Source of the DNA: Escherichia coli
GTDB taxonomy: Bacteria; Pseudomonadota; Gammaproteobacteria; Enterobacterales; Enterobacteriaceae
Reading direction: 5' to 3' (one strand)
Length of the DNA: 64,000 nucleotides
NCBI RefSeq assembly: GCF_013315695.1
Contig: NZ_CP054353.1
Below, one piece after another: positions 14,085-48,157 of this stretch (position 1 is the stretch's first letter; each line of letters starts with the position of its first letter). The notes under the pieces were generated by a model, which made no database searches, was not told the DNA's origin, and saw only the letters and a list, made by a program, of their open reading frames with translations. The position numbers and the translations under genes were made by a program.

Positions 14085-14087
14085 TCA

Positions 14088-14117: not shown

Positions 14118-14129
14118 GGAGGCCACGTT

Positions 14130-16062: not shown

Positions 16063-16071
16063 CTTAATTTG

Positions 16072-16191: not shown

Positions 16192-16285
16192 AATTCTGTT
16201 TATCAGACCACTTCTGCGTTCTGATTTAATCTGTTATCAAGCTTACTTATCGATGTCTCTTCCGCCAAAACATCTTCGGCGTTGT

Positions 16286-19189
<2,904 letters not shown>

Positions 19190-26850: not shown

Positions 26851-28276
26851 TAATGCCGATCAGTTAAGGATCAGTTGACCGATCCAGTGGCTGTGTAAGA
26901 ATCCGGAAACGCTCACTTGTTTCCGGATTTTTTTATGCACATTGGACAGGCTCTTGATCTGGTATCCCGTTACGATTCTCTGCGTAACCCACTGACTTCT
27001 CTGGGGGATTACCTCGACCCCGAACTCATCTCTCGTTGCCTTGCCGAATCAGGTACTGTAACGCTACGCAAGCGCCGTCTTCCCCTCGAAATGATGGTCT
27101 GGTGTATTGTTGGCATGGCGCTTGAGCGTAAAGAACCTCTTCACCAGATTGTGAATCGCCTGGACATCATGCTGCCGGGCAATCGCCCCTTCGTTGCCCC
27201 CAGTGCCGTTATTCAGGCCCGCCAGCGCCTGGGAAGTGAGGCTGTCCGCCGCGTGTTCACGAAAACAGCGCAGCTCTGGCATAACGCCACGCCGCATCCG
27301 CACTGGTGCGGCCTGACCCTGCTGGCCATCGATGGTGTGTTCTGGCGCACACCGGATACACCAGAGAACGATGCAGCCTTCCCCCGCCAGACACATGCCG
27401 GGAACCCGGCGCTCTACCCGCAGGTCAAAATGGTCTGCCAGATGGAACTGACCAGCCATCTGCTGACGGCTGCAGCCTTCGGCACGATGAAGAACAGCGA
27501 AAATGAGCTTGCTGAGCAACTTATAGAACAAACCGGCGATAACACTCTGACGTTAATGGATAAAGGTTATTACTCACTGGGACTGTTAAATGCCTGGAGC
27601 CTGGCGGGAGAACACCGCCACTGGATGATACCTCTCAGAAAGGGAGCGCAATATGAAGAGATCAGAAAACTGGGTAAAGGCGATCATCTGGTGAAGCTGA
27701 AAACCAGCCCGCAGGCACGAAAAAAGTGGCCGGGACTGGGAAATGAAGTGACAGCCCGCCTGCTGACCGTGACGCGCAAAGGAAAAGTCTGCCATCTGCT
27801 GACGTCGATGACGGACGCCATGCGCTTCCCCGGAGGAGAAATGGCGGATCTGTACAGTCATCGCTGGGAAATCGAACTGGGATACAGGGAGATAAAACAG
27901 ACGATGCAACTGAGCAGGCTGACGCTGAGAAGTAAAAAACCGGAGCTTGTGGAGCAAGAGCTGTGGGGTGTCTTACTGGCTTATAATCTGGTGAGATATC
28001 AGATGATTAAAATGGCGGAACATCTGAAAGGTTACTGGCCGAATCAACTGAGTTTCTCAGAATCATGCGGAATGGTGATGAGAATGCTGATGACATTGCA
28101 GGGCGCTTCACCGGGACGTATACCGGAGCTGATGCGCGATCTTGCAAGTATGGGACAACTTGTGAAATTACCGACAAGAAGGGAAAGGGCCTTCCCGAGA
28201 GTGGTAAAGGAGAGGCCCTGGAAATACCCCACAGCCCCGAAAAAGAGCCAGTCAGTTGCTTAACTGACTGGCATTA
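26851..28276 (+). mobile_element. Insertion sequence IS4 (1426 bp) with imperfect terminal inverted repeats
   Basis: Left end taatgccgatcagttaagg, right end gcttaactgactggcatta; single transposase ORF; length matches IS4; no flanking direct repeat. Confidence 0.9.
26935..28263 (+). CDS. insG: IS4 transposase (DDE)
   Basis: 442 aa from [14 protein letters not shown]; matches remembered IS4 transposase. Confidence 0.9.
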
Positions 28277-30485: not shown

Positions 30486-31307
30486 GTGTTCCCCGCGCCA
30501 GCGGGGATAAACCAAATACAGGACCAATATTTTGATATATATAATCGTGTTCCCCGCGCCAGCGGGGATAAACCGGTGATTCTGGCAATACTGGCACTTC
30601 CGTTTTGGTGTTCCCCGCGCCAGCGGGGATAAACCGGGCGGTTAACTGGTCCTGTGCGGATATGCGCTGTGTTCCCCGCGCCAGCGGGGATAAACCGATG
30701 TGGAAAGGCGAGCTGAGGGTGGCCTACGCGTGTTCCCCGCGCCAGCGGGGATAAACCGGCTGAGGAAATTGCTAAACCCTCGCAGGATCCGTGTTCCCCG
30801 CGCCAGCGGGGATAAACCGTTGCCGGTACAGCTCCAGCATTAATCCCCACCGTGTTCCCCGCGCCAGCGGGGATAAACCGTTGCGACGTGGTGCGCGCTC
30901 GAGCACAACGTTGTGTTCCCCGCGCCAGCGGGGATAAACCGATGTAAACCCCTCGCGCATCGAGTCAAATGTCGTGTTCCCCGCGCCAGCGGGGATAAAC
31001 CGCCACCTCAGCCTGCGCGCCCGCTGAATATTCCGTGTTCCCCGCTCCAGCGGGGATAAACCGGGACGCGTTCCATCAGGGCGGGTCCAGGGAATGTGTT
31101 CCCCGCGCCAGCGGGGATAAACCGCAGGCGGCGCAGTGGCGCATGAATCCGTTCGCGTGTTCCCCGCGCCAGCGGGGATAAACCGGAGTTTGTGAATTTA
31201 ACAGAATTCCGCGCCCGGTGTTCCCCGCGCCAGCGGGGATAAACCAGCCAATTGCCATATATGCCATCGCCAGCAGCCGTGTTCCCCGCGCCAGCGGGGA
31301 TAAACCA
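30486..31307 (+). CRISPR. Type I-E CRISPR array, 14 repeats / 13 spacers (distal array between queE and ygcE)
   Basis: 29-bp repeat GTGTTCCCCGCGCCAGCGGGGATAAACCG at exact 61-bp period from 30486 to 31279; 32-bp unique spacers; repeat 10 has GCTCC variant; repeats 1, 13, 14 end in A. Confidence 0.97.
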
Positions 31308-31944: not shown

Positions 31945-33423
31945 TTACGCATTCGACCAGCTCTGGATCGAATCCGCATTCCCCAATTCCCCATGCATCA
32001 CTTCATACGATTTTTTCAGTATCACATCAGTGTGTTTGGTTAGGTCTTTGAAAATGCCTTTATTCATCGCGTCGTAGCGTTTGGCGTTGCTCTCAACAGG
32101 CATAAAGATATCTTTCACGCGAACCATTTTGTCGACAGCCGTTGCGTAATCCGGATACAGACCAAGCCCTACCGCCGTATTAATCGCCGCCCCCAGACTT
32201 GCACAACCATTAATGGCGTTACGGCGTGCCGGAAGGTTGAACACGTCGGCAAAAATCTGCATAAACAGATCGCTGTTCGAACCGCCGCCAGTAATGATCA
32301 CATGCTTTGCAAAGTGATTCATTTCATTACACATATTGTCGTAATTGTTCTTCAGCGTCAGCGCCACGCTTTCCAGTATCGAACGATATATCCATGCGTA
32401 ATCCATGCTGGAATCAAAGCCGATCATAATCCCGCGTTTGTATGGTTCCCACGGATTGGTCAGCCAGTCCAGCACCGTCATCAGACCATTACAGCCAGGT
32501 GGCACACAAGACGCTTTTTTGTTGAGCAAATCTTCCGGTGAAAGATCCTGTGCTTTGGCATCCTGAATTAACGACTCGCCTAGCATGTCGCGTAGCCAGC
32601 TCACCGTCCACATGCCTTTGCGAATACCGTAACCTTCATACAGCAAGGTTTGCGGAATAGAAGACATAATCGGCCAGTACGCTACCGGATCTTTCGGCAG
32701 TGCTTTACCGTTCATCATCAGCGCGATGTAGGTGCCAAGAGAAATCACCGCCGTTTCATCATCCAGTAATCCGGCTCCCAGAGCTTCTACCGGTTTATCA
32801 CTGGTGGTACAAACAACCGGCAGCCCAGCTGGGAAATGTGTCGCCAGCGCGGCTTGAGGAGTGATATGCCCAAGAACAGTGCCCGGCATTTGCACATCAA
32901 ACAGCATATGACGGGGGATATTAAACTTCTCCATGACTGCGGCATCTTCACTCCATGCCCAGCTCTTATAATCCACCGGCCACTGACCAAAATAGTTGGC
33001 GATATTGTCTTTAAACTCGCCGGTTAAGCGATGCGTCAGATAACCCGAAAAAGAGGTGACATATGCCACGTCAGGATTCGTATGTTCGTAAGGGCGTGTA
33101 ACGCGTGCATCCTGCCAGCTAATCAACGGCGCAGCTGGCGTGCCATCGGCTTTCAATAACGCACGGCAGCAACGGATGGATCCCAGACCAATACCGACAA
33201 TATCTTCTTTATTTCCGGCAAACTGACTCATCAAATCGTGACCGGCAAAACATAATGATGCCCATAAATCGTCGTCAGGATGTTCTGCGGTATCGGCATC
33301 TGGCGTGTGCATCGGCTGCAATAAGCCTTTGCCTTCGCAAACCACATTACCTTCCAGATCATACATCACCACTTTTGTGCTCTGACTTCCGCCATCAATC
33401 CCTATGATGTATTTTTTCGACAT
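31945..33423 (-). CDS. ygcE: FGGY-family carbohydrate kinase
   Basis: 492-aa ORF with FGGY kinase N- and C-terminal motifs (IGIDGGSQSTK...). Confidence 0.9.
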   Translation of the reverse strand: MSKKYIIGIDGGSQSTKVVMYDLEGNVVCEGKGLLQPMHTPDADTAEHPDDDLWASLCFAGHDLMSQFAGNKEDIVGIGLGSIRCCRALLKADGTPAAPLISWQDARVTRPYEHTNPDVAYVTSFSGYLTHRLTGEFKDNIANYFGQWPVDYKSWAWSEDAAVMEKFNIPRHMLFDVQMPGTVLGHITPQAALATHFPAGLPVVCTTSDKPVEALGAGLLDDETAVISLGTYIALMMNGKALPKDPVAYWPIMSSIPQTLLYEGYGIRKGMWTVSWLRDMLGESLIQDAKAQDLSPEDLLNKKASCVPPGCNGLMTVLDWLTNPWEPYKRGIMIGFDSSMDYAWIYRSILESVALTLKNNYDNMCNEMNHFAKHVIITGGGSNSDLFMQIFADVFNLPARRNAINGCASLGAAINTAVGLGLYPDYATAVDKMVRVKDIFMPVESNAKRYDAMNKGIFKDLTKHTDVILKKSYEVMHGELGNADSIQSWSNA

Positions 33424-33449
33424 GATTTTTCTCCTGTAATTTTCTGGAC

Positions 33450-34727
33450 TTACTTGCTGCTAGCCATAGCAGGGGCGCTATCAGCAGTACGAATTTTTTG
33501 GAACAGCAAAAAGGTAAAGACGATCACCATGGCAAGCGCCGCCATGCCCATCAGCCACATATTGCGGTAGGCTTCTGCAGCGGGCAGGGTGTCTTGCCAG
33601 TAGCCGATAATCGGGTAAACGAAGACATCCGGCAGGAATCCAATCACCGAACAAATACCTACCGTGGTGCCCATAATGTAAGACGGTGTTCTCGCTTCGC
33701 CAGGGCAGGCCCAGTACAGCCCGCGTGAGGCGTAACAGGTGAATCCCAGCAGTAAAATCAGGCCAATCCCCATCGCGACCGATTGCGGGTTAGAGTTCGT
33801 GACGAGCAGGGCAGTTAACGCCAGCAAGCCGAGTACGGAAAGGATTTGGATCACGCGGGTAGGGGATTTCACTTTACTGTAGGTGGTGATAATGCCGCCA
33901 AGTGGACCACACAGCGCGCGGAATATTTTGTTGATCACAATCCCCATGTAGCTCGCCGCCACCAGCGACATGCCGTACATTTCGGTGAGATAGTTGGTGG
34001 AGTAACTCAGAATGGCGTAGATGGTGAAGACACCAAAAATCACCATGCTGCAATACCAGGTGGTGCTGATGCGCAAAACGGCCAGGATGTCGCTAAGCTG
34101 GAATGACTGTTTTTCTTCGTTATTGGTATTGCGCAGGTTGTTGTTATCGCTAACAAAAAACCAGCACAGAATCCCCAATAAAATGTAGACCACACTGTAG
34201 ATGATAATGACCGTTTTCAGGCTGGCGCTGTCATCCGGTGCAAAGCGAGAAAAGACCCACATGGTAAACACCGCCAGCGACATTACACCGACGCCGCGCA
34301 GCCCTTCCATCCAGCCCATAATTTTCCCTTGCTCGCTATGATCGCCCAGCAACGATGCGGCTTTAATCGACACCGACCACAGCATTAAAATCGTCGTTAT
34401 CGCAAAGGCGACCTGAATACAGAGCATTACCCACAGCGGTGGATAAGTTGCCATTAACAGACCCAGTAATCCGGTAATGATCATCGCGGAAGTAATCATT
34501 TTGCGATGTGAGAATTTATCGGCAATAACGCCACTGGGCGCATAAAGAATAATAGCTGCAATACCAAAGGTACTCATTATTAAACCTATCTCGGTATTGC
34601 TGAATCCCATAAATTTTGCTATGGGAATTTGATAAATATAACGTAAATAAGCCAGGTCGAAACTAACGCCGCCGCTAAAACTAATTATCGCGAGGGTTAT
34701 CCAACGGCGATATGAGTTGTGTTGCAT
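33450..34727 (-). CDS. yqcE: MFS transporter
   Basis: 425-aa polytopic membrane ORF; co-directional and adjacent to ygcE. Confidence 0.85.
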   Translation of the reverse strand: MQHNSYRRWITLAIISFSGGVSFDLAYLRYIYQIPIAKFMGFSNTEIGLIMSTFGIAAIILYAPSGVIADKFSHRKMITSAMIITGLLGLLMATYPPLWVMLCIQVAFAITTILMLWSVSIKAASLLGDHSEQGKIMGWMEGLRGVGVMSLAVFTMWVFSRFAPDDSASLKTVIIIYSVVYILLGILCWFFVSDNNNLRNTNNEEKQSFQLSDILAVLRISTTWYCSMVIFGVFTIYAILSYSTNYLTEMYGMSLVAASYMGIVINKIFRALCGPLGGIITTYSKVKSPTRVIQILSVLGLLALTALLVTNSNPQSVAMGIGLILLLGFTCYASRGLYWACPGEARTPSYIMGTTVGICSVIGFLPDVFVYPIIGYWQDTLPAAEAYRNMWLMGMAALAMVIVFTFLLFQKIRTADSAPAMASSK

Positions 34728-34750
34728 ATCGTATTCCCATTTGTAATAGA

Positions 34751-34797
34751 CAAAAAAAAGAGAAAAGTAAGCCGCCCTTTCAGGTGGATTACTTTTC
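34751..34797 (-). promoter_or_regulatory. Leader hairpin + U-tract 25 nt upstream of yqcE start (candidate attenuator)
   Basis: Minus-sense gaaaagtaa-N18-ttacttttc followed by cttttttttg. Confidence 0.35.
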
Positions 34798-34905
34798 TCA
34801 GGTCTCTAGTAATTGCAATAAGAAATAACATGGAAAGCAGTGGTGTTGTGTGAGAGTAGTCACGCTTCTGCTTTTTAAAATTATTTGATAATACGAATAT
34901 CACAC

Positions 34906-34921
34906 TGTGATTACGATCACA
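34906..34921. promoter_or_regulatory. CRP-type binding site in divergent yqcE/ygcW promoter region
   Basis: TGTGAttacgaTCACA, perfect match to CRP half-sites TGTGA-N6-TCACA. Confidence 0.6.
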
Positions 34922-34973
34922 TTAGCGCTTATGCCCTTATGCTAAAAATTATATCCAGTTACCAGAGATAATG

Positions 34974-35022
34974 AGAAAGGTAACTTCCCTCTCGCGGGGG
35001 AAGTTACCTTTCTTTTTTTTTT
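34974..35022 (+). terminator. Leader hairpin + T-tract 25 nt upstream of ygcW start (candidate intrinsic terminator/attenuator)
   Basis: Perfect 15-bp inverted repeat agaaaggtaacttcc-N10-ggaagttacctttct followed by T10. Confidence 0.5.
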
Positions 35023-35046
35023 GCCTTACGGAAATTGGAGCTAACT

Positions 35047-35832
35047 ATGTCAATCGAATCTCTCAATGCGTTCTCAATGGATTTTTTCTCCCTGAAAGGT
35101 AAAACAGCAATTGTTACCGGCGGGAATAGCGGTTTAGGCCAGGCATTTGCCATGGCGTTGGCCAAAGCTGGCGCAAATGTCTTTATCCCTAGCTTCGTCA
35201 AAGATAACGGCGAAACAAAGGAAATGATTGAAAAACAGGGTGTCGAAGTTGATTTTATGCAGGTGGATATCACCGCAGAAGGCGCGCCGCAGAAGATTAT
35301 CGCTGCCTGCTGTGAGCGCTTCGGTACCGTAGATATTCTGGTTAACAATGCCGGTATTTGTAAGCTGAATAAGGTGCTGGACTTCGGTCGTGCCGACTGG
35401 GACCCGATGATTGATGTGAACCTGACCGCCGCATTCGAGTTAAGCTACGAAGCGGCAAAAATTATGATCCCGCAGAAAAGCGGTAAAATTATTAATATCT
35501 GTTCATTGTTCTCTTACTTAGGTGGACAATGGTCACCTGCATATTCTGCAACTAAACATGCTCTTGCCGGATTCACCAAAGCTTATTGTGATGAACTAGG
35601 TCAATATAATATTCAGGTAAATGGTATTGCCCCTGGATATTACGCTACCGATATCACCCTGGCGACACGCAGTAATCCAGAAACCAATCAGCGCGTTCTT
35701 GATCATATTCCAGCAAACCGTTGGGGCGATACTCAGGATTTAATGGGCACAGCCATATTTCTCGCAAGTCCGGCATCGAATTATGTCAACGGACATTTAT
35801 TAGTGGTTGATGGCGGTTATTTAGTGCGCTAA
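35047..35832 (+). CDS. ygcW: Short-chain dehydrogenase/reductase (KduD/2-deoxygluconate dehydrogenase-like)
   Basis: 261 aa; Rossmann TGGNSGLG motif; catalytic YSATK. Confidence 0.9.
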   Translation: MSIESLNAFSMDFFSLKGKTAIVTGGNSGLGQAFAMALAKAGANVFIPSFVKDNGETKEMIEKQGVEVDFMQVDITAEGAPQKIIAACCERFGTVDILVNNAGICKLNKVLDFGRADWDPMIDVNLTAAFELSYEAAKIMIPQKSGKIINICSLFSYLGGQWSPAYSATKHALAGFTKAYCDELGQYNIQVNGIAPGYYATDITLATRSNPETNQRVLDHIPANRWGDTQDLMGTAIFLASPASNYVNGHLLVVDGGYLVR

Positions 35833-35901
35833 TCCATAACGGTGGTTTCTGTTTTCTCTTATTAATGATTATTCCATTTTTATTATCAGGAAGGAATTAC
35901 T

Positions 35902-37356
35902 ATGTCTTTATCTCGCGCAGCGATTGTCGACCAGCTAAAGGAAATTGTTGGTGCAGATCGCGTAATTACCGATGAAACAGTATTAAAGAAAAACAGTATT
36001 GACCGTTTTCGCAAATTTCCGGATATTCATGGCATTTATACTTTGCCTATTCCGGCAGCGGTCGTAAAACTCGGTTCCACAGAGCAAGTGTCCCGTGTGC
36101 TGAATTTTATGAATGCGCACAAAATTAACGGTGTGCCGCGTACCGGTGCTTCCGCTACCGAAGGTGGACTGGAAACCGTTGTGGAAAACTCGGTAGTGCT
36201 TGATGGCTCTGCAATGAATCAAATCATTAATATTGATATAGAGAATATGCAGGCGACGGCGCAATGTGGTGTTCCGCTGGAGGTGCTGGAAAACGCGTTG
36301 CGTGAAAAAGGTTACACCACGGGGCATTCACCGCAATCAAAACCGCTGGCGCAGATGGGCGGCCTGGTAGCAACCCGCAGTATCGGGCAGTTCTCCACAC
36401 TCTACGGCGCAATCGAAGATATGGTCGTTGGTCTGGAAGCAGTATTGGCTGATGGCACCGTAACACGTATTAAAAACGTGCCACGCCGCGCGGCTGGCCC
36501 GGACATTCGTCACATTATCATCGGCAACGAAGGTGCATTGTGCTATATCACTGAAGTAACAGTGAAAATCTTTAAGTTCACCCCGGAAAACAACCTCTTC
36601 TACGGCTATATCCTGGAAGATATGAAAACCGGCTTCAACATCCTGCGTGAAATCATGGTGGAAGGGTATCGTCCGTCGATTGCTCGTTTGTATGATGCTG
36701 AAGATGGCACCCAACACTTCACCCATTTTGCCGACGGCAAATGCGTGCTGATCTTTATGGCTGAAGGTAACCTTCGCATTGCGAAGGCGACGGGCGAAGG
36801 GATTGCTGAAATCGTGGCACGTTACCCGCAATGCCAGAGCGTGGACAGCAAGCTGATCGAAACCTGGTTTAACAACCTGAACTGGGGACCGGATAAAGTG
36901 GCTGCCGAACGTGTGCAGATCCTCAAAACCGGCAACATGGGCTTTACCACCGAAGTGTCCGGCTGCTGGAGCTGCATTCACGAAATCTACGAAAGCGTTA
37001 TTAACCGTATTCGTACCGAGTTCCCGCACGCCGACGACATCACCATGCTGGGCGGTCACTCCTCTCATAGCTATCAGAACGGCACCAACATGTACTTCGT
37101 CTACGACTACAACGTCGTTGACTGTAAGCCGGAAGAGGAAATCGACAAGTACCACAATCCGCTCAACAAAATCATCTGCGAAGAAACCATTCGCCTCGGC
37201 GGTTCGATGGTGCACCACCACGGTATTGGTAAACATCGCGTTCACTGGAGCAAACTGGAACACGGCAGCGCGTGGACGTTGCTGGAAGGGCTGAAAAAAC
37301 AGTTCGATCCTAACGGCATTATGAATACGGGTACTATCTATCCGATTGAAAAATAA
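35902..37356 (+). CDS. ygcU: FAD-linked oxidase (alkyl-DHAP synthase/D-lactate dehydrogenase-like)
   Basis: 484-aa ORF with FAD-binding PCMH-type domain features. Confidence 0.9.
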   Translation: MSLSRAAIVDQLKEIVGADRVITDETVLKKNSIDRFRKFPDIHGIYTLPIPAAVVKLGSTEQVSRVLNFMNAHKINGVPRTGASATEGGLETVVENSVVLDGSAMNQIINIDIENMQATAQCGVPLEVLENALREKGYTTGHSPQSKPLAQMGGLVATRSIGQFSTLYGAIEDMVVGLEAVLADGTVTRIKNVPRRAAGPDIRHIIIGNEGALCYITEVTVKIFKFTPENNLFYGYILEDMKTGFNILREIMVEGYRPSIARLYDAEDGTQHFTHFADGKCVLIFMAEGNLRIAKATGEGIAEIVARYPQCQSVDSKLIETWFNNLNWGPDKVAAERVQILKTGNMGFTTEVSGCWSCIHEIYESVINRIRTEFPHADDITMLGGHSSHSYQNGTNMYFVYDYNVVDCKPEEEIDKYHNPLNKIICEETIRLGGSMVHHHGIGKHRVHWSKLEHGSAWTLLEGLKKQFDPNGIMNTGTIYPIEK

Positions 37357-37449
37357 TGTGTGAGGCAGCGTTCCGCGATGACGGGGCGTTGCCTTTTCGG
37401 CTTCTCAGGCGAGAAGCCGTTCTTATTACCGGACAATGAAGGGGTAAAG

Positions 37450-38787
37450 ATGAACACTTCACCGGTGCGAATGGATGATTTACCGCTTAACCGTTTTCAC
37501 TGTCGAATTGCTGCGCTCACTTTCGGCGCGCACCTGACCGACGGTTATGTTCTCGGCGTCATTGGTTACGCCATTATTCAGCTTACGCCCGCCATGCAAC
37601 TGACGCCGTTAATGGCGGGAATGATCGGCGGCTCGGCGCTCCTTGGTTTGTTTCTTGGCAGCCTGGTTCTTGGGTGGATCTCCGACCATATTGGTCGGCA
37701 AAAAATCTTCACCTTCAGCTTTTTGCTGATTACGCTCGCTTCGCTCTTGCAATTTTTTGCCACCACGCCAGAGCATCTTATTGGATTGCGCATTTTGATC
37801 GGCATTGGTCTGGGAGGCGATTACTCAGTCGGTCACACCTTGCTGGCTGAATTTTCCCCGCGCCGCCATCGCGGTATTTTGCTGGGCGCATTCAGTGTGG
37901 TGTGGACCGTAGGCTATGTGCTGGCAAGTATTGCCGGACATCACTTTATTACCGAAAGCCCGGAGGCCTGGCGCTGGCTGCTGGCATCAGCGGCGTTACC
38001 AGCCTTGCTGATTACGCTGCTACGTTGGGGCACGCCGGAATCGCCACGCTGGCTACTGCGCCAGGGGCGTTTTGCAGAAGCTCACGCTATCGTTCATCGC
38101 TATTTTGGCCCGCATGTTTTACTGGGCGATGAAGTGGCAACGGCGACCCATAAACACATCAAAACCTTGTTCTCTTCGCGCTACTGGCGGCGCACAGCGT
38201 TTAACAGCGTCTTCTTTGTCTGCCTCGTAATCCCATGGTTTGTGATTTATACCTGGCTGCCAACTATCGCCCAGACTATTGGACTGGAAGATGCGCTGAC
38301 TGCCAGCCTGATGCTTAATGCGTTGTTAATTGTTGGCGCGCTGCTGGGATTAGTTCTGACGCACCTGCTGGCACATCGCAAGTTTTTGCTGGGAAGTTTT
38401 TTGTTGCTGGCGGCAACGCTGGTAGTGATGGCCTGTTTGCCTTCCGGCAGTTCATTAACGCTGCTGCTTTTTGTTCTCTTCAGCACCACCATTTCGGCAG
38501 TCAGTAATCTGGTGGGCATTTTGCCTGCGGAAAGTTTTCCTACTGACATTCGCTCGCTGGGCGTCGGTTTTGCCACCGCCATGAGTCGGTTGGGGGCGGC
38601 GGTAAGTACTGGCCTGCTGCCGTGGGTGCTGGCGCAGTGGGGAATGCAAGCCACCTTATTGCTCCTGGCGGCAGTGTTGTTGGTTGGTTTTGTTGTGACC
38701 TGGCTATGGGCACCAGAAACCAAAGCACTCCCGCTGGTGGCGGCGGGAAATGTAGGAGGTGCGAATGAACATTCTGTTAGCGTTTAA
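37450..38787 (+). CDS. ygcS: MFS transporter
   Basis: ORF-track call trimmed to MNTSPVRMDD (445 aa); 12-TM MFS. Confidence 0.85.
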   Translation: MNTSPVRMDDLPLNRFHCRIAALTFGAHLTDGYVLGVIGYAIIQLTPAMQLTPLMAGMIGGSALLGLFLGSLVLGWISDHIGRQKIFTFSFLLITLASLLQFFATTPEHLIGLRILIGIGLGGDYSVGHTLLAEFSPRRHRGILLGAFSVVWTVGYVLASIAGHHFITESPEAWRWLLASAALPALLITLLRWGTPESPRWLLRQGRFAEAHAIVHRYFGPHVLLGDEVATATHKHIKTLFSSRYWRRTAFNSVFFVCLVIPWFVIYTWLPTIAQTIGLEDALTASLMLNALLIVGALLGLVLTHLLAHRKFLLGSFLLLAATLVVMACLPSGSSLTLLLFVLFSTTISAVSNLVGILPAESFPTDIRSLGVGFATAMSRLGAAVSTGLLPWVLAQWGMQATLLLLAAVLLVGFVVTWLWAPETKALPLVAAGNVGGANEHSVSV

Positions 38788-39544
38788 AGCCGAACCGGAT
38801 GCCGGAATGCTGGCGGAAAAAGAGTGGCAGGCGGCGGCTCAGGGTAATATTGGACCAGATGTTTCGCTACTGCGAAGTTTACTCGGTGCTGATGAACAGG
38901 CTGCCGCCGCGCTGCTGTTGGCGCAGAGAAAAAACGGTACGTCGATGTCTTTAACCGCGTTGAGCATGGGGGATGAACGGGCGTTGCACTGGCTGCGCTA
39001 TCTCATGGCTCTTGGGTTTGAGGACGCTGTATTGCTGGAGACGGTGGCAGATCTGCGCTTTGCGCCGGAATTTGTCGCTCGCCATATTGCCGAATGGCAG
39101 CGTCAGAATCCGCTGGATCTGATAATTACCGGCTGCCAAAGCAGCGAAGGGCAGAATGGGCAAACGCCATTTTTGCTGGCGGAAATGCTGGGCTGGCCCT
39201 GCTTCACCCTGGTGGAGCGTTTTACTCTCGACGCGCCGTTTATCACCCTTGAACAGCGTACTGAACATGGGCTGCGCTGTTACCGGGTTCGCTTGCCTGC
39301 GGTGATTGCCGTGCGCCAGTGTGGTGAAGTGGCCTTGCCAGTACCGGGAATGCGCCAGCGAATGGCTGCGGGGAAAGCAGAAATTATCCGTAAAACTGTT
39401 GCTGTCGAATTGCCAGCGATGCAGTGTCTGCAACTGGCAAGAGCAGAGCAACGACGCGGAGCGACGCTGATTGATGGGCAAACGGTAGCAGAAAAAGCGC
39501 AAAAGCTATGGCAGAACTATTTACGCCAAAGGATGCAGCCATGA
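38765..39544 (+). CDS. ygcR: Electron transfer flavoprotein beta-subunit-like protein
   Basis: 259 aa from MNILLAFKAEPD; FixA/EtfB-like; overlaps ygcS end. Confidence 0.85.
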   Translation: MNILLAFKAEPDAGMLAEKEWQAAAQGNIGPDVSLLRSLLGADEQAAAALLLAQRKNGTSMSLTALSMGDERALHWLRYLMALGFEDAVLLETVADLRFAPEFVARHIAEWQRQNPLDLIITGCQSSEGQNGQTPFLLAEMLGWPCFTLVERFTLDAPFITLEQRTEHGLRCYRVRLPAVIAVRQCGEVALPVPGMRQRMAAGKAEIIRKTVAVELPAMQCLQLARAEQRRGATLIDGQTVAEKAQKLWQNYLRQRMQP

Positions 39545-40401
39545 ATATCGCAATTGTGACAATAAATCAGGAGAATGCCGCAATAGCGAGCTGGCTGGCA
39601 GAACAGGATTTCAGCGGTTGTACCCTGGCACACTGGCAGATTGAACCTCAGCCCGTAGTGGCGGAACAGGTGCTGGATGCGCTGGTGGAACAGTGGCAGC
39701 GAACGCCAGCGGACGTTGTTCTCTTTCCGCCGGGAACGTTTGGTGATGAACTGTCGACACGGCTGGCCTGGCGTTTACATGGTGCAAGCATCTGCCAGGT
39801 GACTTCGTTAGATATTTCAACCGTAAGCGTGCGCAAATCCCACTGGGGAAATGCGCTAACGGCGACGCTGCAAACAGAAAAACGCCCGCTATGCCTTTCC
39901 CTTGCCCGCCAGGCGGGAGCAGTGAAAAACGCCACATTGCCCTCTGGTATGCAGCAACTGAACATTGTCCCCGGCGCACTTCCCGACTGGCTGGTTAGCA
40001 CAGAGGATCTGAAAAATGTTACCCGTGACCCATTAGCTGAGGCCAGACGGGTGCTGGTGGTGGGGCAGGGCGGAGAGGCAGATAACCAGGAAATCGCTAT
40101 GCTGGCAGAAAAGCTGGGAGCCGAAGTGGGCTACAGTCGGGCGCGAGTAATGAACGGTGGCGTTGATGCCGAAAAAGTGATTGGTATTTCCGGACATCTG
40201 CTGGCACCTGAGGTGTGTATTGTTGTTGGCGCTTCTGGCGCAGCAGCGTTAATGGCGGGCGTATGCAATAGCAAGTTTGTGGTGGCGATTAATCATGACG
40301 CCAGCGCAGCGGTATTTTCACAGGCAGATGTTGGCGTGGTTGATGACTGGAAAGTGGTGCTGGAGGCAATGGTGACAAACATTCACGCAGATTGCCAATA
40401 A
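39541..40401 (+). CDS. ygcQ: Electron transfer flavoprotein alpha-subunit-like protein
   Basis: 286 aa from MNIAIVTINQ; FixB/EtfA-like; ATGA overlap with ygcR stop. Confidence 0.85.
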   Translation: MNIAIVTINQENAAIASWLAEQDFSGCTLAHWQIEPQPVVAEQVLDALVEQWQRTPADVVLFPPGTFGDELSTRLAWRLHGASICQVTSLDISTVSVRKSHWGNALTATLQTEKRPLCLSLARQAGAVKNATLPSGMQQLNIVPGALPDWLVSTEDLKNVTRDPLAEARRVLVVGQGGEADNQEIAMLAEKLGAEVGYSRARVMNGGVDAEKVIGISGHLLAPEVCIVVGASGAAALMAGVCNSKFVVAINHDASAAVFSQADVGVVDDWKVVLEAMVTNIHADCQ

Positions 40402-40547
40402 CGTGTTGCTGGATGATCCTGCCTACGGTTCTGGCCTGGGGACTTGTAGGCCTGATAAGACGCGTCAAGCGTCGCATCAGGCGCTGAATGTCCGATGTGG
40501 CGTACAGCCTACAAATCACACAAATTCAATTCGTTACGATTATCCCG
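40402..40547. repeat. REP element(s) between convergent ygcQ and ygcP
   Basis: gtaggcctgataagacgcgtcaagcgtcgcatcaggc REP consensus-like palindrome. Confidence 0.5.
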
Positions 40548-41123
40548 TCAAAGCAATTTTTTCGCTAGCGTCCAGACCCCGGTATTCGTGGTGGAAAGCG
40601 CCACGACACCTGCGTTAATCGCATTACGCGCATCTTCTTCATCGCACACCAGCCCGCCAGCAATCAGCGGTTGGCGGATTTTCTCCGTCACCCAGCCCAG
40701 CACTTTGGGCATACAGCCAGGCAGGATCTCAATACAATCCGGATTCGATTGCGCAACTTGCTTATCAATGTTGTGAAACGAAATCGAATCAACAATAAAC
40801 AGGCGATGAATACAGAAAAAACCTTCCGCTCTTGCTGCTTTCAGCATTGAGGCTTTGGTACTGATAATGCCGTCCGCCTCGGTCACCAGTTTCAGAAACT
40901 GAATCACCACTTCTTTGTTCGATGCGCCTTCCAGCAAATCGACATGAATAAAGGCATATTTCCCGGCACTTTTAATCTTTTTGACGATATGACTGATGGT
41001 GCAGATATTGCCGTACAACACGGAAATAAACTGGCATTCAGAGTCGATTGCCAGTTGCAGGCTGGCATTATCTTTAACGGCAGCAATCACCGGATTCTGG
41101 CGGAGCAGGTGTAAGAGGGGCAT
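40548..41123 (-). CDS. ygcP: GlpP-family (glycerol-3-phosphate-responsive antiterminator-like) protein
   Basis: 191-aa ORF matching remembered YgcP / GlpP family. Confidence 0.85.
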   Translation of the reverse strand: MPLLHLLRQNPVIAAVKDNASLQLAIDSECQFISVLYGNICTISHIVKKIKSAGKYAFIHVDLLEGASNKEVVIQFLKLVTEADGIISTKASMLKAARAEGFFCIHRLFIVDSISFHNIDKQVAQSNPDCIEILPGCMPKVLGWVTEKIRQPLIAGGLVCDEEDARNAINAGVVALSTTNTGVWTLAKKLL

Positions 41124-41139
41124 AAATTATCCTTATTAT

Positions 41140-41400
41140 TTATCCAAAACGGTAGGTGATGCCGAATCCGGAAGGCGGATAGCGCCACTGTTGTAGTGTT
41201 GATTCGTCGCACAGCAAACGGCAGGTGCCACACTCCAGGCAGCCGCGATAATCAACGCGTAAGTCACCTTCCGGTGTGAGCGAAAAAAGACCAGCCGGAC
41301 AAGCGTTAATCAACCGTTGTACCGTCTGGCGCTCAACGGAGTCAGCCGGAACAATGTGCGGCGCATCGGCAACGCGCCAGAGATTACGGGCTACAGACAT
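41140..41400 (-). CDS. ygcO: FixX-like ferredoxin
   Basis: 86 aa from MSVARNLW; Cys cluster CLECGTCRLLC; overlaps ygcN 3' end. Confidence 0.8.
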   Translation of the reverse strand: MSVARNLWRVADAPHIVPADSVERQTVQRLINACPAGLFSLTPEGDLRVDYRGCLECGTCRLLCDESTLQQWRYPPSGFGITYRFG

Positions 41401-42662
41401 CGAATACTCCTGACAACATCGCCCGCCAGATGCCACAGGCCGTGACGACGTAAATGACGCCAGAGCAACTGGCGCAGCGGCGGAACAGGTTTATCACCCT
41501 GATCCCATAAATCGCGGGAAATATCCTGCATTAACGCAGGCCACGCACGGTACCATCCAGGGCGTTGCAAAAGCGCCGGAACATGCTGATAACGTTGTAG
41601 AACATCCCATAGCAGGCTGCGCTCGACGTTGTGATGATAAAGCGCAAACAGATTTTGCGGCTCGCGGTGCTGGCAGGCGCTTATCAGCGTTTGTGCCGCC
41701 GCCTGCGCGCCAGTCAGCGCCATATCCATGCCGCGCACGGAAATTCCGGTATTGACGCAACTGCGCAACGCATCGCCCACCAGCAGCCAGCCGTTACCGG
41801 CGTATTGCACCGGCATACTGTGCAAGCCACCTTCTGGCACCAGATGCGCACCATACTCCAGTGATTCCGTGTTTTTGATAAGCGGGCGCACTGCCGGATG
41901 CGTTTTAAAGCGAGCCAGCAGCTCGCTTGCCGGAACACGACTTTGCGTAAGGGAAGAGAGCGGGCAAACAATCCCTAACGAGAGCGTTTGTTGATTAGTA
42001 TAAAGAAATGCGCCGCCGGGTAAGTCATCACAGATCCCGCCGCTGAACAGCAACGCTGCGCCTTCGTTATTCTCCAGATGAAAACGTTCTTCAATAGCGG
42101 ATGTTTCCAGCGACAGCACTTCTTTGATCCCCAACGCCATCGCTTCGCCAGCAGGACGAGTCACTAACCCGTGACGCTCAGCCAGGACGCTGTTGGCACC
42201 TTCTGCCAGCACCACATAACGGGCGCGGAGAATATCGTCACCACAAATGACACCACACACCCTGCCGTTTTCTTCATACAGCGCATCTACCGTCGCACCA
42301 GGGATGCATTCGACACCTTCTTTTTCGGCTTCGGCAACCAGCCACGGATCGAACCGTGCACGTAATACGCTCCAGGATTCACCGCCGGGCTGTAAGCTGG
42401 AAAACGTCGTTGCGCCATCCGGCGTTAGCAGAGAAAGACTTTCGTGAGTGATGCGTCGTTCAAGAGGCGCGGTCAGGTGAAACTGAGGGAGGAGTTCCGC
42501 GAGCGCCTGGGTATATAAACGCCCGCCGGAAAGGTTTTTACTGCCGGGAATTTCAGCGCGTTCCAGTAACAGAACGGATAAACCTGCCCGCGCGCAGCGT
42601 AAAGCACAAGCGGTGCCTGCTATACCGGCACCAATAATAATAATGTCGCAGTCGTCTTCCAT
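41391..42662 (-). CDS. ygcN: FixC-like flavoprotein (electron transfer flavoprotein-quinone oxidoreductase family)
   Basis: 423 aa from MEDDCDIIIIGAGIAG (FAD dinucleotide-binding motif). Confidence 0.85.
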   Translation of the reverse strand: MEDDCDIIIIGAGIAGTACALRCARAGLSVLLLERAEIPGSKNLSGGRLYTQALAELLPQFHLTAPLERRITHESLSLLTPDGATTFSSLQPGGESWSVLRARFDPWLVAEAEKEGVECIPGATVDALYEENGRVCGVICGDDILRARYVVLAEGANSVLAERHGLVTRPAGEAMALGIKEVLSLETSAIEERFHLENNEGAALLFSGGICDDLPGGAFLYTNQQTLSLGIVCPLSSLTQSRVPASELLARFKTHPAVRPLIKNTESLEYGAHLVPEGGLHSMPVQYAGNGWLLVGDALRSCVNTGISVRGMDMALTGAQAAAQTLISACQHREPQNLFALYHHNVERSLLWDVLQRYQHVPALLQRPGWYRAWPALMQDISRDLWDQGDKPVPPLRQLLWRHLRRHGLWHLAGDVVRSIRCL

Positions 42663-42739
42663 GTCATGCCCCAGATATCCAGAGCGCAACACCCTAACAT
42701 AGCGTTACTTAAGGGAAATTGACCGCCGACACACTCTTA

Positions 42740-47906: not shown

Positions 47907-48008
47907 ATGGACAAAAGCCCCAGGCGATATTTCTATCAACCTGAGGCCAGCGTTCGAACCCAAACAATTCGAATGTTAGTCTCTTCTTTGCAGGGAGGCA
48001 AGACATGC
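47907..48008 (+). CDS. mok-like leader ORF translationally coupled to hok-like toxin
   Basis: 33-codon ORF ([34 protein letters not shown]) whose stop overlaps the toxin start (ATGcTGA). Confidence 0.4.
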
Positions 48009-48157
48009 TGACAAAATATGCCCTTGTGGCAATCATAGTGCTGTGTTTTACAGTACTGGGATTCACGCTGATGGTAGGCGACTCGTTGTGTGAGTTGAGT
48101 ATCAGAGAACGTGGTATGGAGTTTAAGGCGGTTCTCGCTTACGAATCGAAGAAGTAG
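48005..48157 (+). CDS. Hok/Gef-family type I toxin (50 aa)
   Basis: [50 protein letters not shown]; single TM helix then conserved SLCE...AYES periplasmic motif; RBS agggagg 7 nt upstream; below 60-aa cutoff of ORF track. Confidence 0.8.

What the first reader, a model, noticed from the sequence alone, without database searches (positions are those of the whole stretch)
31945..42692. Cryptic ygc catabolic module with its own electron-transfer flavoprotein chain
Ten co-located genes encode an FGGY sugar kinase, two MFS transporters, an SDR dehydrogenase, an FAD-linked oxidase of the alkyl-DHAP-synthase/D-lactate dehydrogenase type, an ETF beta/alpha pair, a FixC-like ETF:quinone oxidoreductase, a FixX-like ferredoxin and a GlpP-like regulator. 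This resembles the fixABCX and ydiQRST arrangement, where a substrate oxidation is wired to a private ETF relay. A perfect CRP site between the divergent operons indicates catabolite-controlled carbon-source use. To my knowledge the substrate and physiological role are unassigned; a phosphorylated polyol or sugar acid is a plausible guess.
Basis: partly seen in the sequence, partly recalled or inferred. Interest (0 to 1): 0.55.

Follow-up and report, generated by a model that had tools for sequence, protein, structure and literature searches.

The report
CRP-plus-antiterminator-controlled orphan ygc catabolic cluster
The ten-gene E. coli ygc cluster is real and still has no assigned substrate; it also carries a previously unannotated pair of mirror-image RNA leader switches, conserved across several bacterial phyla, that probably let its GlpP-like protein turn the genes on, which gives a practical way to find the inducer.

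Summary
The window is E. coli chromosome, and all ten ygc genes are intact at the stated coordinates. The perfect CRP palindrome is at 34906-34921. No substrate assignment was found in the searchable literature.

- There are two CRP sites. Each lies about -41.5 from one of two mirror-image promoters, and the layout is conserved in about 45 enterobacterial loci.
- Each promoter is followed by a ~70-nt leader with a strong intrinsic terminator. A 6-bp stem (P1) competes with that terminator. The element shows compensatory changes and is found in Enterobacterales, Clostridia, Bacilli, Negativicutes and Actinomycetes. It co-occurs with the GlpP-like gene: 58 loci have both, 19 have neither, and 6 are discordant. 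It has the architecture of the B. subtilis GlpP/glpD attenuator but no detectable sequence similarity. It is not in Rfam and not annotated in RefSeq.
- The conserved core is YgcW (SDR), YgcE (kinase), YgcU and YgcP. The ETF and FixCX genes are lineage-specific accessories. YgcU keeps the active-site motifs of alkyl-DHAP synthase.

Elsewhere the core travels with quaternary-amine transporters, MttB methyltransferases and aldehyde/formaldehyde-handling genes. The substrate remains unknown. The regulatory model is well supported by comparison but has not been tested experimentally.

The parts
31945..33423 (-). ygcE, FGGY-family kinase (492 aa), second gene of the yqcE-ygcE operon
   Evidence: PGAP annotation. 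NCBIfam matches to XylB, LsrK and GlpK are all below cut-off. The closest solved structure is the AI-2 kinase LsrK, E 3.5e-29. It co-occurs with YgcU in 36 of the 40 loci that entered the ORF clustering.
33450..34727 (-). yqcE, MFS transporter (425 aa; D-galactonate/anion:cation-symporter-like)
   Evidence: It is the first gene downstream of the minus-strand leader.
34752..34819 (-). yqcE leader element. P1 5' strand ATTACT is at 34813-34808 and P1 3' strand AGTAAT at 34793-34788. The terminator hairpin spans 34799-34760 and the U-run 34759-34752.
   Evidence: Covariance-model hit of 72.3 bits, E 1.7e-16. The terminator folds at -20.5 kcal/mol, z -5.2. P1 forms in the fold truncated before the terminator 3' arm. 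The element is paralogous to the ygcW leader.
34822..34830 (-). Predicted extended -10 (TGtTATTTC) of the yqcE promoter; predicted start site about 34815
   Evidence: It aligns with the ygcW-side extended -10. The conserved (C/T)(A/G)TGnTAnnnn block sits at a fixed distance in about 45 loci. The start site is inferred, not measured.
34849..34864 (.). CRP-type site 2 (TGTGAGAGTAGTCACG, 9 of 10 consensus positions), centred about -41.5 from the predicted yqcE start site
   Evidence: Sites matching 9-10 of 10 positions lie at a fixed offset of -44 to -46 from the leader in 44 of 46 minus-strand (yqcE-side) model matches in enterobacterial loci; the other two are weak matches.
34906..34921 (.). 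CRP site 1 (perfect TGTGATTACGATCACA), centred about -41.5 from the predicted ygcW start site
   Evidence: It is the only exact match in the window, against 0.02 expected. Sites matching 8-10 of 10 positions lie at offsets of -45 to -47 on the ygcW side in 44 enterobacterial loci. It was predicted earlier by PhyloScan (PMC1794230).
34940..34948 (+). Predicted extended -10 (TGcTAAAAA) of the ygcW promoter; predicted start site about 34955
   Evidence: Inferred, not measured.
34952..35022 (+). ygcW leader element. P1 5' strand GTTACC is at 34958-34963, the loop AGAGAUAAUGAGAAA at 34964-34978, and P1 3' strand GGTAAC at 34979-34984. The terminator hairpin spans 34973-35014 and is followed by a U-run ending at 35022.
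   Evidence: It is the best terminator-like site in a 12.5 kb scan, with 19 pairs. It folds at -30.6 kcal/mol, z -6.5. Covariance-model hit of 80 bits, E 1.1e-18. Covariation is shown.
35047..35832 (+). ygcW, SDR oxidoreductase (261 aa, KduD / 2-deoxygluconate-3-dehydrogenase-like)
   Evidence: It is 63-82% identical across phyla and lies next to YgcU in nearly all loci.
35902..37356 (+). ygcU, FAD-linked flavoenzyme (484 aa) with alkyl-DHAP-synthase-type active-site motifs (R195, Y398, H438-H440)
   Evidence: Pfam. Profile search against PDB gives AGPS 1.3e-55, glycolate oxidase 2.2e-35 and LctD 1e-24, and the alignment shows the HHHGxGK..YF.. and PR..GPDI motifs. These residues are invariant in 12 orthologues. 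Orthologues are 64-75% identical across phyla.
37378..38787 (+). ygcS, MFS transporter (469 aa; sugar-porter / aromatic-acid:H+ / NiaP-like)
   Evidence: Overexpression improves NMN production from nicotinamide (PMC8601175).
38765..39544 (+). ygcR, ETF beta-like subunit; overlaps ygcS by 23 nt
   Evidence: the matches are weak and below cut-off.
39541..40401 (+). ygcQ, ETF alpha-like subunit; overlaps ygcR by 4 nt
40548..41123 (-). ygcP, GlpP-family protein (191 aa), the proposed antiterminator acting on both leaders
   Evidence: PF04309 matched over its full length, E 2.8e-62. [quoted passage not shown] Presence of this gene tracks presence of the leader element: 58 loci have both, 19 have neither.
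41140..41400 (-). ygcO, FixX-like ferredoxin (86 aa)
   Evidence: 84 bits against FixX, cut-off 166.
41391..42662 (-). ygcN, FixC/YdiS-like FAD-dependent oxidoreductase (423 aa), putative ETF:quinone oxidoreductase
   Evidence: PRK10015 380 bits, FixC 364 bits, both below cut-off. No leader element lies upstream of it.

Best explanation
The ygc locus is a substrate-inducible catabolic regulon under two layers of control.

**Layer 1, inferred from sequence and conservation.** Two back-to-back, mirror-image promoters each carry a CRP site centred about -41.5 and an extended -10. cAMP-CRP is therefore needed for initiation towards yqcE-ygcE and towards ygcW-ygcU-ygcS-ygcR-ygcQ.

**Layer 2, inferred from covariation, co-occurrence and analogy.** Each transcript begins with a ~70-nt leader that by default folds into a strong intrinsic terminator just before the ribosome-binding site. 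This keeps the cluster silent, or 'cryptic'.
- A 6-bp stem, P1 (GUUACY/RGUAAC), encloses a conserved purine-rich loop (AGAG-N4-5-GAGAAA). P1 uses the same nucleotides as the 5' arm of the terminator.
- YgcP is a GlpP-family protein expressed from the separate ygcNOP unit. It is proposed to bind and stabilise P1 once it has bound its effector, which prevents terminator formation.
- By analogy with GlpK, glycerol-3-phosphate and GlpP in B. subtilis, the effector is most likely the phosphorylated product of the YgcE kinase.

**Enzymology, lower confidence.**
- The conserved core is a transporter, the YgcE kinase, the YgcW NAD(P)-dependent SDR and YgcU. YgcU is a flavoenzyme with the catalytic motifs of alkyl-DHAP synthase.
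- The simplest chemistry is phosphorylation and oxidation of a 1-substituted glycerol-like diol to a substituted dihydroxyacetone phosphate. YgcU then processes this at C1, releasing a triose phosphate and a second product.
- In E. coli-type clusters YgcU, or a reaction coupled to it, exchanges electrons with the quinone pool through YgcRQ (ETF) and YgcNO (FixCX-like).
For: **Shown directly**
- All genes are intact and their families confirmed.
- The two leaders are paralogous. Their terminators fold at -30.6 and -20.5 kcal/mol, with z scores of -6.5 and -5.2.
- In 22 diverse leaders P1 pairs in 99.2% of cells, and 4 of 6 pairs show compensatory changes. Slid controls pair in 19-64% of cells.
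- The terminator stem pairs in 88.8% of cells, with 8 compensatory pairs. Position 28 covaries with both of its partners.
- On 123 distinct model-aligned matches, 93.8% of cells pair and 9 of 11 pairs show compensatory changes. None of 500 shuffles reached this.
- The covariance model finds exactly two hits in the window. In 83 other loci it gives about 115 hits, immediately upstream of ygcW-type (57), yqcE-type (45), BCCT (6), YgcU (4) and MttB (1) genes.
- Element against GlpP-like gene in a locus: 58 have both, 19 have neither, 5 have the element only (4 of them on truncated contigs), and 1 has the gene only.
- CRP-like sites and an extended -10 lie at fixed spacing before both leaders in about 45 loci.
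- The B. subtilis glpD 5'UTR is a proven GlpP target. It has the same layout: the stem GGUC/GACC, the loop CUGAGAUGAGGAGA, and a 3' strand that begins the terminator (PMC9604022 Table S4).
- YgcU keeps the AGPS motifs. His616 and His617 are named as AGPS active-site residues in PMC13019191.
- The core set is conserved at 63-82% identity across phyla.
Against: - There is no experimental evidence. Start sites, termination, YgcP-RNA binding and the effector are all inferred.
- The ygc leader profile does not detect the B. subtilis glpD leader by nhmmer. The link to GlpP therefore rests on architecture and co-occurrence, not on RNA homology.
- P1 alone is weak. It is not in the minimum-free-energy fold of the truncated ygcW leader.
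- One full-length locus (L033) keeps both leaders without a nearby ygcP. One locus (L080) has the protein with only a 24.7-bit match.
- Related sequences inflate the co-occurrence and covariation counts.
- AGPS chemistry is redox-neutral overall, which does not explain a dedicated ETF chain. Conversely, ETF-less clusters argue against obligatory ETF coupling.
- The effector could be glycerol-3-phosphate itself.
Confidence: 0.6

Rival explanations
1. The cluster is a CRP-controlled pathway in which a kinase product (a phosphorylated polyol or sugar acid) is oxidised by a D-lactate-dehydrogenase-type flavoenzyme. That enzyme hands electrons to a private ETF, FixCX-like, quinone chain. The leader hairpins are incidental, and YgcP either acts elsewhere or is inactive.
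For: The gene families fit. GlcD/LctD-type oxidases do pair with ETF; LctD is among the YgcU hits. In anaerobes ETF genes directly follow the YgcU gene.
Against: - The leaders are conserved with covariation across five higher taxa and track the GlpP-like gene.
- ETF and FixCX are missing from many clusters that keep the core.
- YgcU is closer to AGPS than to any D-2-hydroxyacid dehydrogenase and keeps the HHH/Tyr/Arg motifs. The co-encoded GlcD-type paralogue lacks them.
Confidence: 0.13
2. The same attenuator mechanism operates, but YgcP senses glycerol-3-phosphate itself, as canonical GlpP does. The cluster would then be an auxiliary route linked to glycerol or glycerol-3-phosphate. One example is an ETF-linked glycerol-3-phosphate-type dehydrogenase for particular redox conditions.
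For: YgcP is a full-length PF04309 member and aligns along its whole length with Listeria GlpP. The AGPS-like site of YgcU is built for a dihydroxyacetone-phosphate moiety. The FixCX-like link to quinone parallels GlpD and GlpABC; that parallel is established knowledge.
Against: - E. coli already has GlpK, GlpD and GlpABC under GlpR; that is established knowledge.
- YgcE is closer to xylulokinase and LsrK than to GlpK.
- The regulon in other phyla includes BCCT and OpuA transporters and MttB methyltransferases. These make no sense for glycerol.
- The leader RNA differs in sequence from the glpD leader.
Confidence: 0.14
3. The leader is a metabolite-binding riboswitch, or another protein-independent attenuator, and its association with ygcP is only genomic linkage.
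For: The element is conserved in sequence and structure and has the classic terminator/antiterminator layout. No binding data exist.
Against: - The conserved part outside the terminator is only a 6-bp stem with a ~15-nt loop, which is very small for a ligand pocket.
- Loci that use other regulators (GntR, sigma-54 activators, LysR) lack both the element and the GlpP-like gene.
- A proven protein-dependent system has the same architecture.
Confidence: 0.06
4. In E. coli the cluster is an evolutionary remnant that is no longer functional, and its silence reflects decay rather than regulation.
For: The cluster is rarely seen expressed. There are few literature mentions and no phenotype. About 7% of complete genomes lack the control region.
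Against: - All ten ORFs are intact.
- The cluster is present in about 93% of complete genomes at 95-100% identity.
- Promoter, CRP sites and leaders are conserved in detail across genera.
- The core proteins are under strong constraint across phyla.
Confidence: 0.05

Closest known systems
GlpP / glpD, glpFK and glpTQ leader antitermination of Bacillus subtilis
   Same: - The protein belongs to the same Pfam family, PF04309.
- The leaders lie directly after the promoter and carry an intrinsic terminator.
- A short stem with a GAG-rich loop has a 3' strand that starts the terminator's 5' arm.
- The regulator is encoded outside the regulated operons.
- A kinase gene belongs to the regulon.
   Different: - The RNA sequence is not detectably similar (nhmmer gives no hit).
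- P1 is GUUACY/RGUAAC rather than GGUC/GACC.
- The regulon is not glp genes but an SDR, FGGY kinase and AGPS-like set with MFS, BCCT or OpuA transporters.
- In Enterobacterales the element is combined with class II-type CRP sites and occurs as an inverted pair.
- The effector is unknown.
BglG/SacY/LicT-type RAT antitermination (E. coli bgl operon)
   Same: A protein stabilises a small antiterminator hairpin that overlaps a leader terminator in a catabolic operon. That is established knowledge.
   Different: The protein family is unrelated: there is no CAT/PRD domain. The RNA motif is unrelated, with no Rfam match. Control is presumably by a small-molecule effector rather than by PTS phosphorylation.
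fixABCX (with caiTABCDE) and ydiQRST of E. coli
   Same: These are paralogous ETF beta/alpha, FixC-like and FixX-like quartets attached to a specific catabolic operon.
   Different: - All ygc members score below the equivalog cut-offs.
- The quartet is split over two transcription units.
- It is an accessory that many orthologous clusters lack.
- The partner enzyme is not an acyl-CoA dehydrogenase but an AGPS-like flavoenzyme.
- The direction of electron flow is unknown.
Alkyl-dihydroxyacetone-phosphate synthase (AGPS, EC 2.5.1.26)
   Same: AGPS is the best solved relative, at 1.3e-55. The FAD_binding_4 and cap domains, the HHHGxGK loop, the catalytic-region Tyr and the PR..GPDI Arg are all conserved.
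   Different: - YgcU lacks about 155 N-terminal residues of AGPS; the alignment starts at AGPS residue 179, which pairs with YgcU residue 23.
- YgcU sits in a catabolic, transporter-linked operon.
- It is often followed by ETF genes.
- There is no evidence for long-chain lipid substrates.
LctBCD lactate dehydrogenase-ETF complex of Acetobacterium woodii and other ETF-dependent GlcD-family dehydrogenases
   Same: A FAD-linked oxidase gene is adjacent to etfBA genes. In anaerobes a second GlcD-type oxidase and an ETF alpha with a ferredoxin domain follow the YgcU gene.
   Different: YgcU is more distant from LctD (1e-24) than from AGPS, and it carries HHH where GlcD-type enzymes have EHG.

Membership tests
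GlpP-type antitermination system (protein) | Regulator is a PF04309 (G3P_antiterm) protein of about 190 aa | tested here: met
   YgcP residues 12-184 match PF04309 positions 1-173 of 173, E 2.8e-62. It aligns with PDB 3KTS and 1VKF.
GlpP-type antitermination system (RNA target) | The regulated operons begin with a leader that contains an intrinsic terminator | tested here: met
   Both leaders are conserved in all enterobacterial loci.
GlpP-type antitermination system (RNA target) | An alternative structure or binding site overlaps the 5' arm of the terminator | tested here: met
   P1 shares nucleotides 34979-34984 with the terminator. Covariation supports both pairings.
GlpP-type antitermination system (RNA target) | Sequence similarity of the leader to the characterised B. 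subtilis glpD leader | tested here: not met
   nhmmer with the ygc leader profile finds no hit in the glpD 5'UTR. Only the architecture and the GAG-rich loop are shared.
GlpP-type antitermination system (function) | The protein binds the leader RNA and causes read-through when loaded with glycerol-3-phosphate | not testable with these tools
   This needs EMSA, in vitro transcription and reporter assays. Only co-occurrence is available: 58 loci with both, 19 with neither.
Class II CRP-dependent promoter | Consensus TGTGA-N6-TCACA site | tested here: met
   A 10/10 site at 34906-34921 and a 9/10 site at 34849-34864.
Class II CRP-dependent promoter | Site centred near -41.5 relative to the transcription start | tested here: inconclusive
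   The spacing to the conserved extended -10 gives -41.5 for both promoters. The start sites are predicted, not measured.
Alkyl-DHAP synthase (AGPS) | VAO-type FAD domain plus cap domain, with the HHH loop, the catalytic Tyr and the Arg of the PR..GPD segment | tested here: met
   alignment. The residues are invariant in orthologues. His616 and His617 are named as active-site residues in PMC13019191. The Tyr is the position that differs between PDB 4BBY and 4BCA.
Alkyl-DHAP synthase (AGPS) | N-terminal domain and overall length of about 580-660 aa | tested here: not met
   YgcU is 484 aa. The alignment begins at AGPS residue 179.
Alkyl-DHAP synthase (AGPS) | Acyl/alkyl exchange activity on acyl-DHAP | not testable with these tools
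   An enzyme assay is required.
FixABCX / YdiQRST-type ETF module | ETF beta, ETF alpha, a FixC-like flavoprotein and a FixX-like ferredoxin encoded together | tested here: met
   All four are present. All score below the equivalog cut-offs, and they are split between the ygcW operon and ygcNOP.
Any curated RNA family (Rfam 15) | Match to a covariance model at or near the gathering score | tested here: not met
   No Rfam match with E<=1 overlaps the leaders in E. coli, Geosporobacter, Halobacillus or Sporomusa.

The most novel reading that the evidence does not exclude
The conserved trio YgcE, YgcW and YgcU runs ether-lipid biosynthesis in reverse as a catabolic route.
- A water-soluble 1-substituted glycerol (a glyceryl ether) is phosphorylated by the FGGY kinase.
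- The SDR oxidises it at C2 to an alkyl-DHAP analogue.
- The AGPS-type flavoenzyme cleaves it at C1 into a triose phosphate plus the released alcohol or aldehyde.

Outside Enterobacterales the natural substrates would be deacylated betaine lipids. The DGTS, DGTA and DGCC head groups are quaternary amines ether-linked to glycerol. This would account for several observations:
- BCCT and OpuA transporters under the same RNA switch;
- MttB demethylases in anaerobes;
- the ALDH, aspartase-like lyase, class III ADH, Fae and AKR genes in aerobes.

If correct, this would be the first catabolic role for an AGPS-type enzyme and the first pathway for betaine-lipid head groups.
Probability: 0.15. Interest if true: 0.85.

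Novelty: new variant of a known kind. Interest (0 to 1): 0.62.

Why it matters
The ygc genes are among the long-standing orphan 'y-genes' of E. coli. They are present in about 93% of complete genomes, and their core enzymes are 63-82% identical across at least five bacterial phyla or classes, which implies a widespread, conserved and unknown metabolic reaction.

The paired leader switches explain why the cluster is silent in the laboratory. They also turn the open question into an experiment: a leader-reporter fusion, with and without ygcP and ygcE, can be screened against compound libraries to find the inducer and hence the substrate.

The work also points to a GlpP-type protein-RNA antitermination system in a Gram-negative model organism. 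It defines a new, broadly distributed cis-regulatory RNA class that is absent from Rfam and from genome annotation.

Finally, the AGPS-type active site in a catabolic context suggests chemistry not yet described in bacteria.

Tried and rejected
1. **Rfam.** I scanned the E. coli region and three Firmicute loci at E<=1. Nothing overlapped the leaders.
2. **Homology to the canonical GlpP target.** nhmmer with the leader profile against the B. subtilis glpD 5'UTR gave no hit. I therefore claim architectural similarity only.
3. **A third copy of the element.** I looked upstream of ygcNOP, elsewhere in the window and elsewhere in E. coli genomes. The model finds only two hits in the window. The control region occurs once per genome.
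4. **Metagenome scan with a leader pattern.** The pattern also matched the E. coli yqcE leader, so most of the 80 loci fetched were gut E. coli. Of 81 matches, 70 were in ygc-type contexts. Four marine phage-like contigs and two short contigs carry the motif without a terminator, and I treat them as chance matches.
5. **Literature.** Ten searches found no functional assignment. The first search was swamped by 'ygcen' journal DOIs. 'YgcO' in a PTS-Ntr review is a misspelling of YcgO.
6. **Carnitine or choline as substrate.** A C. amalonaticus proteome study on these compounds reports Cai and FixABC. No ygc-type proteins appear in the text or in the supplements held as text. This is weak negative evidence only, because I did not verify that the strain carries the cluster.
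7. **ETF as a universal partner.** Rejected by the gene maps.
8. **A simple regular expression for the motif.** It failed because of the variable loop length. I replaced it with a covariance model.

Full report
**1. What is there**

The window is E. coli chromosome. The flagged stretch is 100% identical to NZ_LR898874 and is present at >=80% coverage in 5060 of 5426 complete genomes. RefSeq annotation mapped onto the window gives ten intact genes in three transcription units:
- yqcE-ygcE on the minus strand;
- ygcW-ygcU-ygcS-ygcR-ygcQ on the plus strand, where ygcS/ygcR and ygcR/ygcQ overlap;
- ygcN-ygcO-ygcP on the minus strand, downstream of queD.

None reaches an equivalog cut-off, so no specific function is assigned.

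**2. The control region is richer than one CRP site**

The 319-bp divergent region holds the perfect palindrome TGTGATTACGATCACA at 34906-34921. It is the only exact match in 64 kb, against 0.02 expected. A second site with one mismatch lies at 34849-34864.

The strongest terminator-like feature in a 12.5-kb scan is not at a gene end. It lies 33 nt upstream of the ygcW start codon: 19 pairs plus a U-run at 34973-35022, folding at -30.6 kcal/mol, z -6.5. A matching hairpin plus U-run lies just upstream of yqcE on the other strand at 34799-34752, folding at -20.5 kcal/mol, z -5.2.

Aligning the two sides shows that they are inverted paralogues. Each has:
- an extended -10-like block;
- TTACYAGAGA, then 3-4 nt, then TGAGAAARGTAA;
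- a hairpin, a U-run and a ribosome-binding site.

In both, a 6-bp stem can form: GTTACC/GGTAAC on one side and ATTACT/AGTAAT on the other. The 3' strand of this stem is part of the 5' arm of the terminator, which is a classic antiterminator/terminator arrangement.

With the extended -10 as anchor, the predicted start sites are about 34955 and 34815. That places each CRP site at -41.5 from its own promoter.

**3. Comparative test of the leader**

YgcU is unusually conserved, at 71-73% identity to proteins from Sporomusa, Alkalihalobacillus and Desulfobacula. A scan of one genome per species returned 80 loci from Enterobacterales, Desulfobacterota, SAR324, Negativicutes, Clostridia, Bacilli and Actinomycetes.

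The region upstream of the SDR gene carries the same element in all of these groups except Desulfobacterota and SAR324. High-GC Saccharopolyspora has GTCGC...GCGAC where others have GTTAC...GTAAC.

Results on 22 diverse leaders (alignment A3):
- P1 pairs in 99.2% of cells, with compensatory changes at 4 of 6 pairs. Slid controls pair in 19-64% of cells.
- The terminator stem pairs in 88.8% of cells, with 8 compensatory pairs.
- Position 28 covaries with both partners: C-G-C in the E. coli type and U-A-U elsewhere.
- The loop keeps AGAG...GAGAA nearly invariant.

A covariance model found about 115 strong hits in 1.55 Mb. There are exactly two in the window and two per enterobacterial locus. In Firmicutes there are additional copies directly upstream of BCCT transporter genes, of the YgcU gene and of an MttB operon. 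On the 123 distinct model-aligned hits, 93.8% of cells pair and 9 of 11 pairs show compensatory change. That alignment is fitted to the model, so it leans towards the structure.

Presence of the element tracks presence of a GlpP-like gene in the locus: 58 have both and 19 have neither. Five have the element only, four of them on truncated contigs, and one has the gene only. Loci lacking both use GntR, sigma-54 or LysR-type regulators instead. These include Alkalihalobacillus, in the same class as Halobacillus, which has both.

In about 45 enterobacterial loci both leaders are preceded by a CRP-like site and an extended -10 at fixed spacing.

**4. Relation to the known GlpP system**

YgcP is a full-length PF04309 protein. 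Its closest solved relatives are two 'glycerol uptake operon antiterminator' structures.

In B. subtilis, GlpP loaded with glycerol-3-phosphate disrupts a terminator in the 5'UTRs of glpD, glpFK and glpTQ, each of which has a GlpP binding site (PMC9604022; PMC10573289). The glpD 5'UTR given in Table S4 of PMC9604022 folds the same way as the ygc leaders:
- the stem GGUC/GACC;
- a 14-nt GAG-rich loop, CUGAGAUGAGGAGA;
- a 3' strand that begins the terminator's 5' arm.

The ygc leader profile does not detect the glpD leader by nhmmer. No Rfam family matches the ygc leaders, and RefSeq annotates nothing there. I therefore file the element as a new sequence class with the architecture of the GlpP attenuator, not as a member of a described RNA family.

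**5. What the module really consists of**

Gene maps of all loci and Pfam-annotated neighbourhoods show the following.
- **Invariant core:** SDR (YgcW, 63-82% identity), YgcU (64-75%), FGGY kinase (46-58%) and usually the GlpP-like gene.
- **ETF:** ETF beta/alpha follow YgcU in anaerobes, often with a second GlcD-type oxidase, and once with a further ETF pair whose alpha subunit has a ferredoxin domain. ETF is also present in E. coli-type Enterobacterales.
- **Clusters lacking ETF:** ETF is absent from the clusters of Halobacillus, Virgibacillus, Thalassobacillus, Saccharopolyspora and Pantoea/Erwinia-type Enterobacteria.
- **FixCX-like genes:** these occur only in Enterobacterales.
- **Minimal cluster:** in Halobacillus it is the GlpP-like gene next to SDR-kinase-YgcU-BCCT.

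The 'private ETF chain' is thus a lineage-specific accessory.

**6. Clues to the chemistry**

YgcU's best solved relatives are alkyl-DHAP synthases (1.3e-55), ahead of glycolate oxidase (2.2e-35) and LctD (1e-24). The alignment covers both domains and conserves three motifs:
- the HHHGxGK loop;
- the Tyr at the position that differs between PDB entries 4BBY and 4BCA;
- the PR..GPDI segment.

These residues are invariant in orthologues. His616 and His617, together with that segment, are described as catalytic in PMC13019191. The GlcD-type paralogue of anaerobes has EHG instead. YgcU lacks the AGPS N-terminal domain.

Kinase, SDR and AGPS-type enzyme are, formally, the steps of ether-lipid biosynthesis run backwards: alkylglycerol to 1-alkyl-glycerol-3-phosphate to alkyl-DHAP to DHAP. 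This is my inference from established pathway knowledge.

Transporters differ by lineage: MFS in Enterobacterales and Actinomycetes, BCCT or OpuA-type elsewhere. Accessory genes recur:
- MttB-family methyltransferases in the same operon in anaerobes;
- a true Fae, an AKR closest to L-glyceraldehyde-3-phosphate and methylglyoxal reductases, and an ALDH in ETF-less Enterobacterales and SAR324;
- an aspartase-like lyase, a betaine-aldehyde-dehydrogenase-like ALDH and a class III-type ADH in Alkalihalobacillus.

Outside Enterobacterales the substrate is therefore probably N-methylated (quaternary-amine-like) and hydroxylated, and an aldehyde or formaldehyde is produced. Deacylated betaine lipids would fit. 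This is speculation, and I give it a probability of about 0.15.

**7. Literature**

- CRP control was predicted in 2007, and yqcE-ygcE is listed as Crp-activated.
- YgcS overexpression helps nicotinamide-based NMN production.
- ygcU is mildly induced by D-serine, but its deletion has no phenotype in that study.
- No paper in the searchable library assigns a substrate or describes the leaders.
- Subscription-only literature could not be searched.

**8. Verdict**

The best-supported explanation is a two-layer switch: class II-type CRP activation plus YgcP-dependent antitermination at two mirror-image leaders. This switch controls an orphan pathway whose signature enzyme is AGPS-like.

What is shown: gene content, sequence features, covariation and co-occurrence. 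What is inferred: start sites, YgcP-RNA binding, the effector (proposed to be the YgcE product), the chemistry and the role of the ETF chain.

Novelty: the regulatory element is a new variant of a known kind, and the pathway remains unknown. Interest: 0.62. The element makes the long-open question of ygc function directly testable with a reporter screen.

Noticed in passing
window ~30486-31307; also ~48352 onward and ~48005-48157: A CRISPR repeat array lies between queE and ygcE. A type I-E cas3 gene and a hok/gef toxin gene lie beyond cysJIH (annotation of the identical RefSeq record).
   Followed up: no
window ~26917-28263: An IS4-family transposase is inserted between eno and ygcG in this strain.
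   Followed up: no
window 40402-40547 (weak Rfam hit at 40449-40522, minus strand): The convergent ygcQ/ygcP gap holds REP-like palindromes. There is a sub-threshold match to naRNA4 (RF02564), 31.9 bits against a gathering score of 59.5.
   Followed up: partly
L033 8839-9129 (Serratia microhaemolytica): Both leader elements are present, but no ygcP homologue was found within 10 kb on either side. It is the only full-length locus with the RNA and without the protein.
   Followed up: no
L080 (rumen Eubacterium MAG): A GlpP-like gene sits inside a rearranged cluster, but the RNA model gives only a 24.7-bit match. This may be a divergent leader class.
   Followed up: no
L006 and L027: Contigs labelled 'Planctomycetota MAG' and 'Chryseobacterium sp.' encode YgcU at 99% and 89% identity to E. 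coli, within enterobacterial-type clusters. This is probably contamination or misbinning of the public assemblies.
   Followed up: no
L033-L049, L081 versus L063-L075: The FGGY kinase of the Serratia, Pantoea, Rahnella and Erwinia clusters is only 43-50% identical to E. coli YgcE. Firmicute kinases are 54-58% identical, although the neighbouring SDR and YgcU follow the species tree. This suggests gene replacement or horizontal transfer of the kinase.
   Followed up: no
L034, L039, L048 (~2386-3101) and L050 6890: A genuine formaldehyde-activating enzyme (Fae, TIGR03126, 139.9 bits against a cut-off of 118) is encoded in the ETF-less enterobacterial clusters and in SAR324. These are organisms not known for tetrahydromethanopterin-dependent C1 metabolism.
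   Followed up: partly
L085 (Geosporobacter) 13249-16796: After YgcU-EtfBA come a second GlcD-type oxidase and a second ETF pair whose alpha subunit has an N-terminal ferredoxin domain. This layout is typical of electron-bifurcating Ldh/Etf-type complexes.
   Followed up: no
L106, L127, L143, L156 (marine metagenome contigs): The P1-like motif ATTACTAGAGGGCACGAGAAAAGTAAT occurs upstream of a terminase-small-like ORF in phage-like contigs that also encode terminase-large and portal proteins. No terminator follows it. It is probably a chance match, but it is identical in four contigs.
   Followed up: partly
window 37378-38787 (ygcS): YgcS is a distant homologue of the niacin transporter NiaP. 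It has been reported to raise NMN production from nicotinamide when overexpressed (PMC8601175). This hints that it can carry small pyridine or cationic compounds.
   Followed up: no
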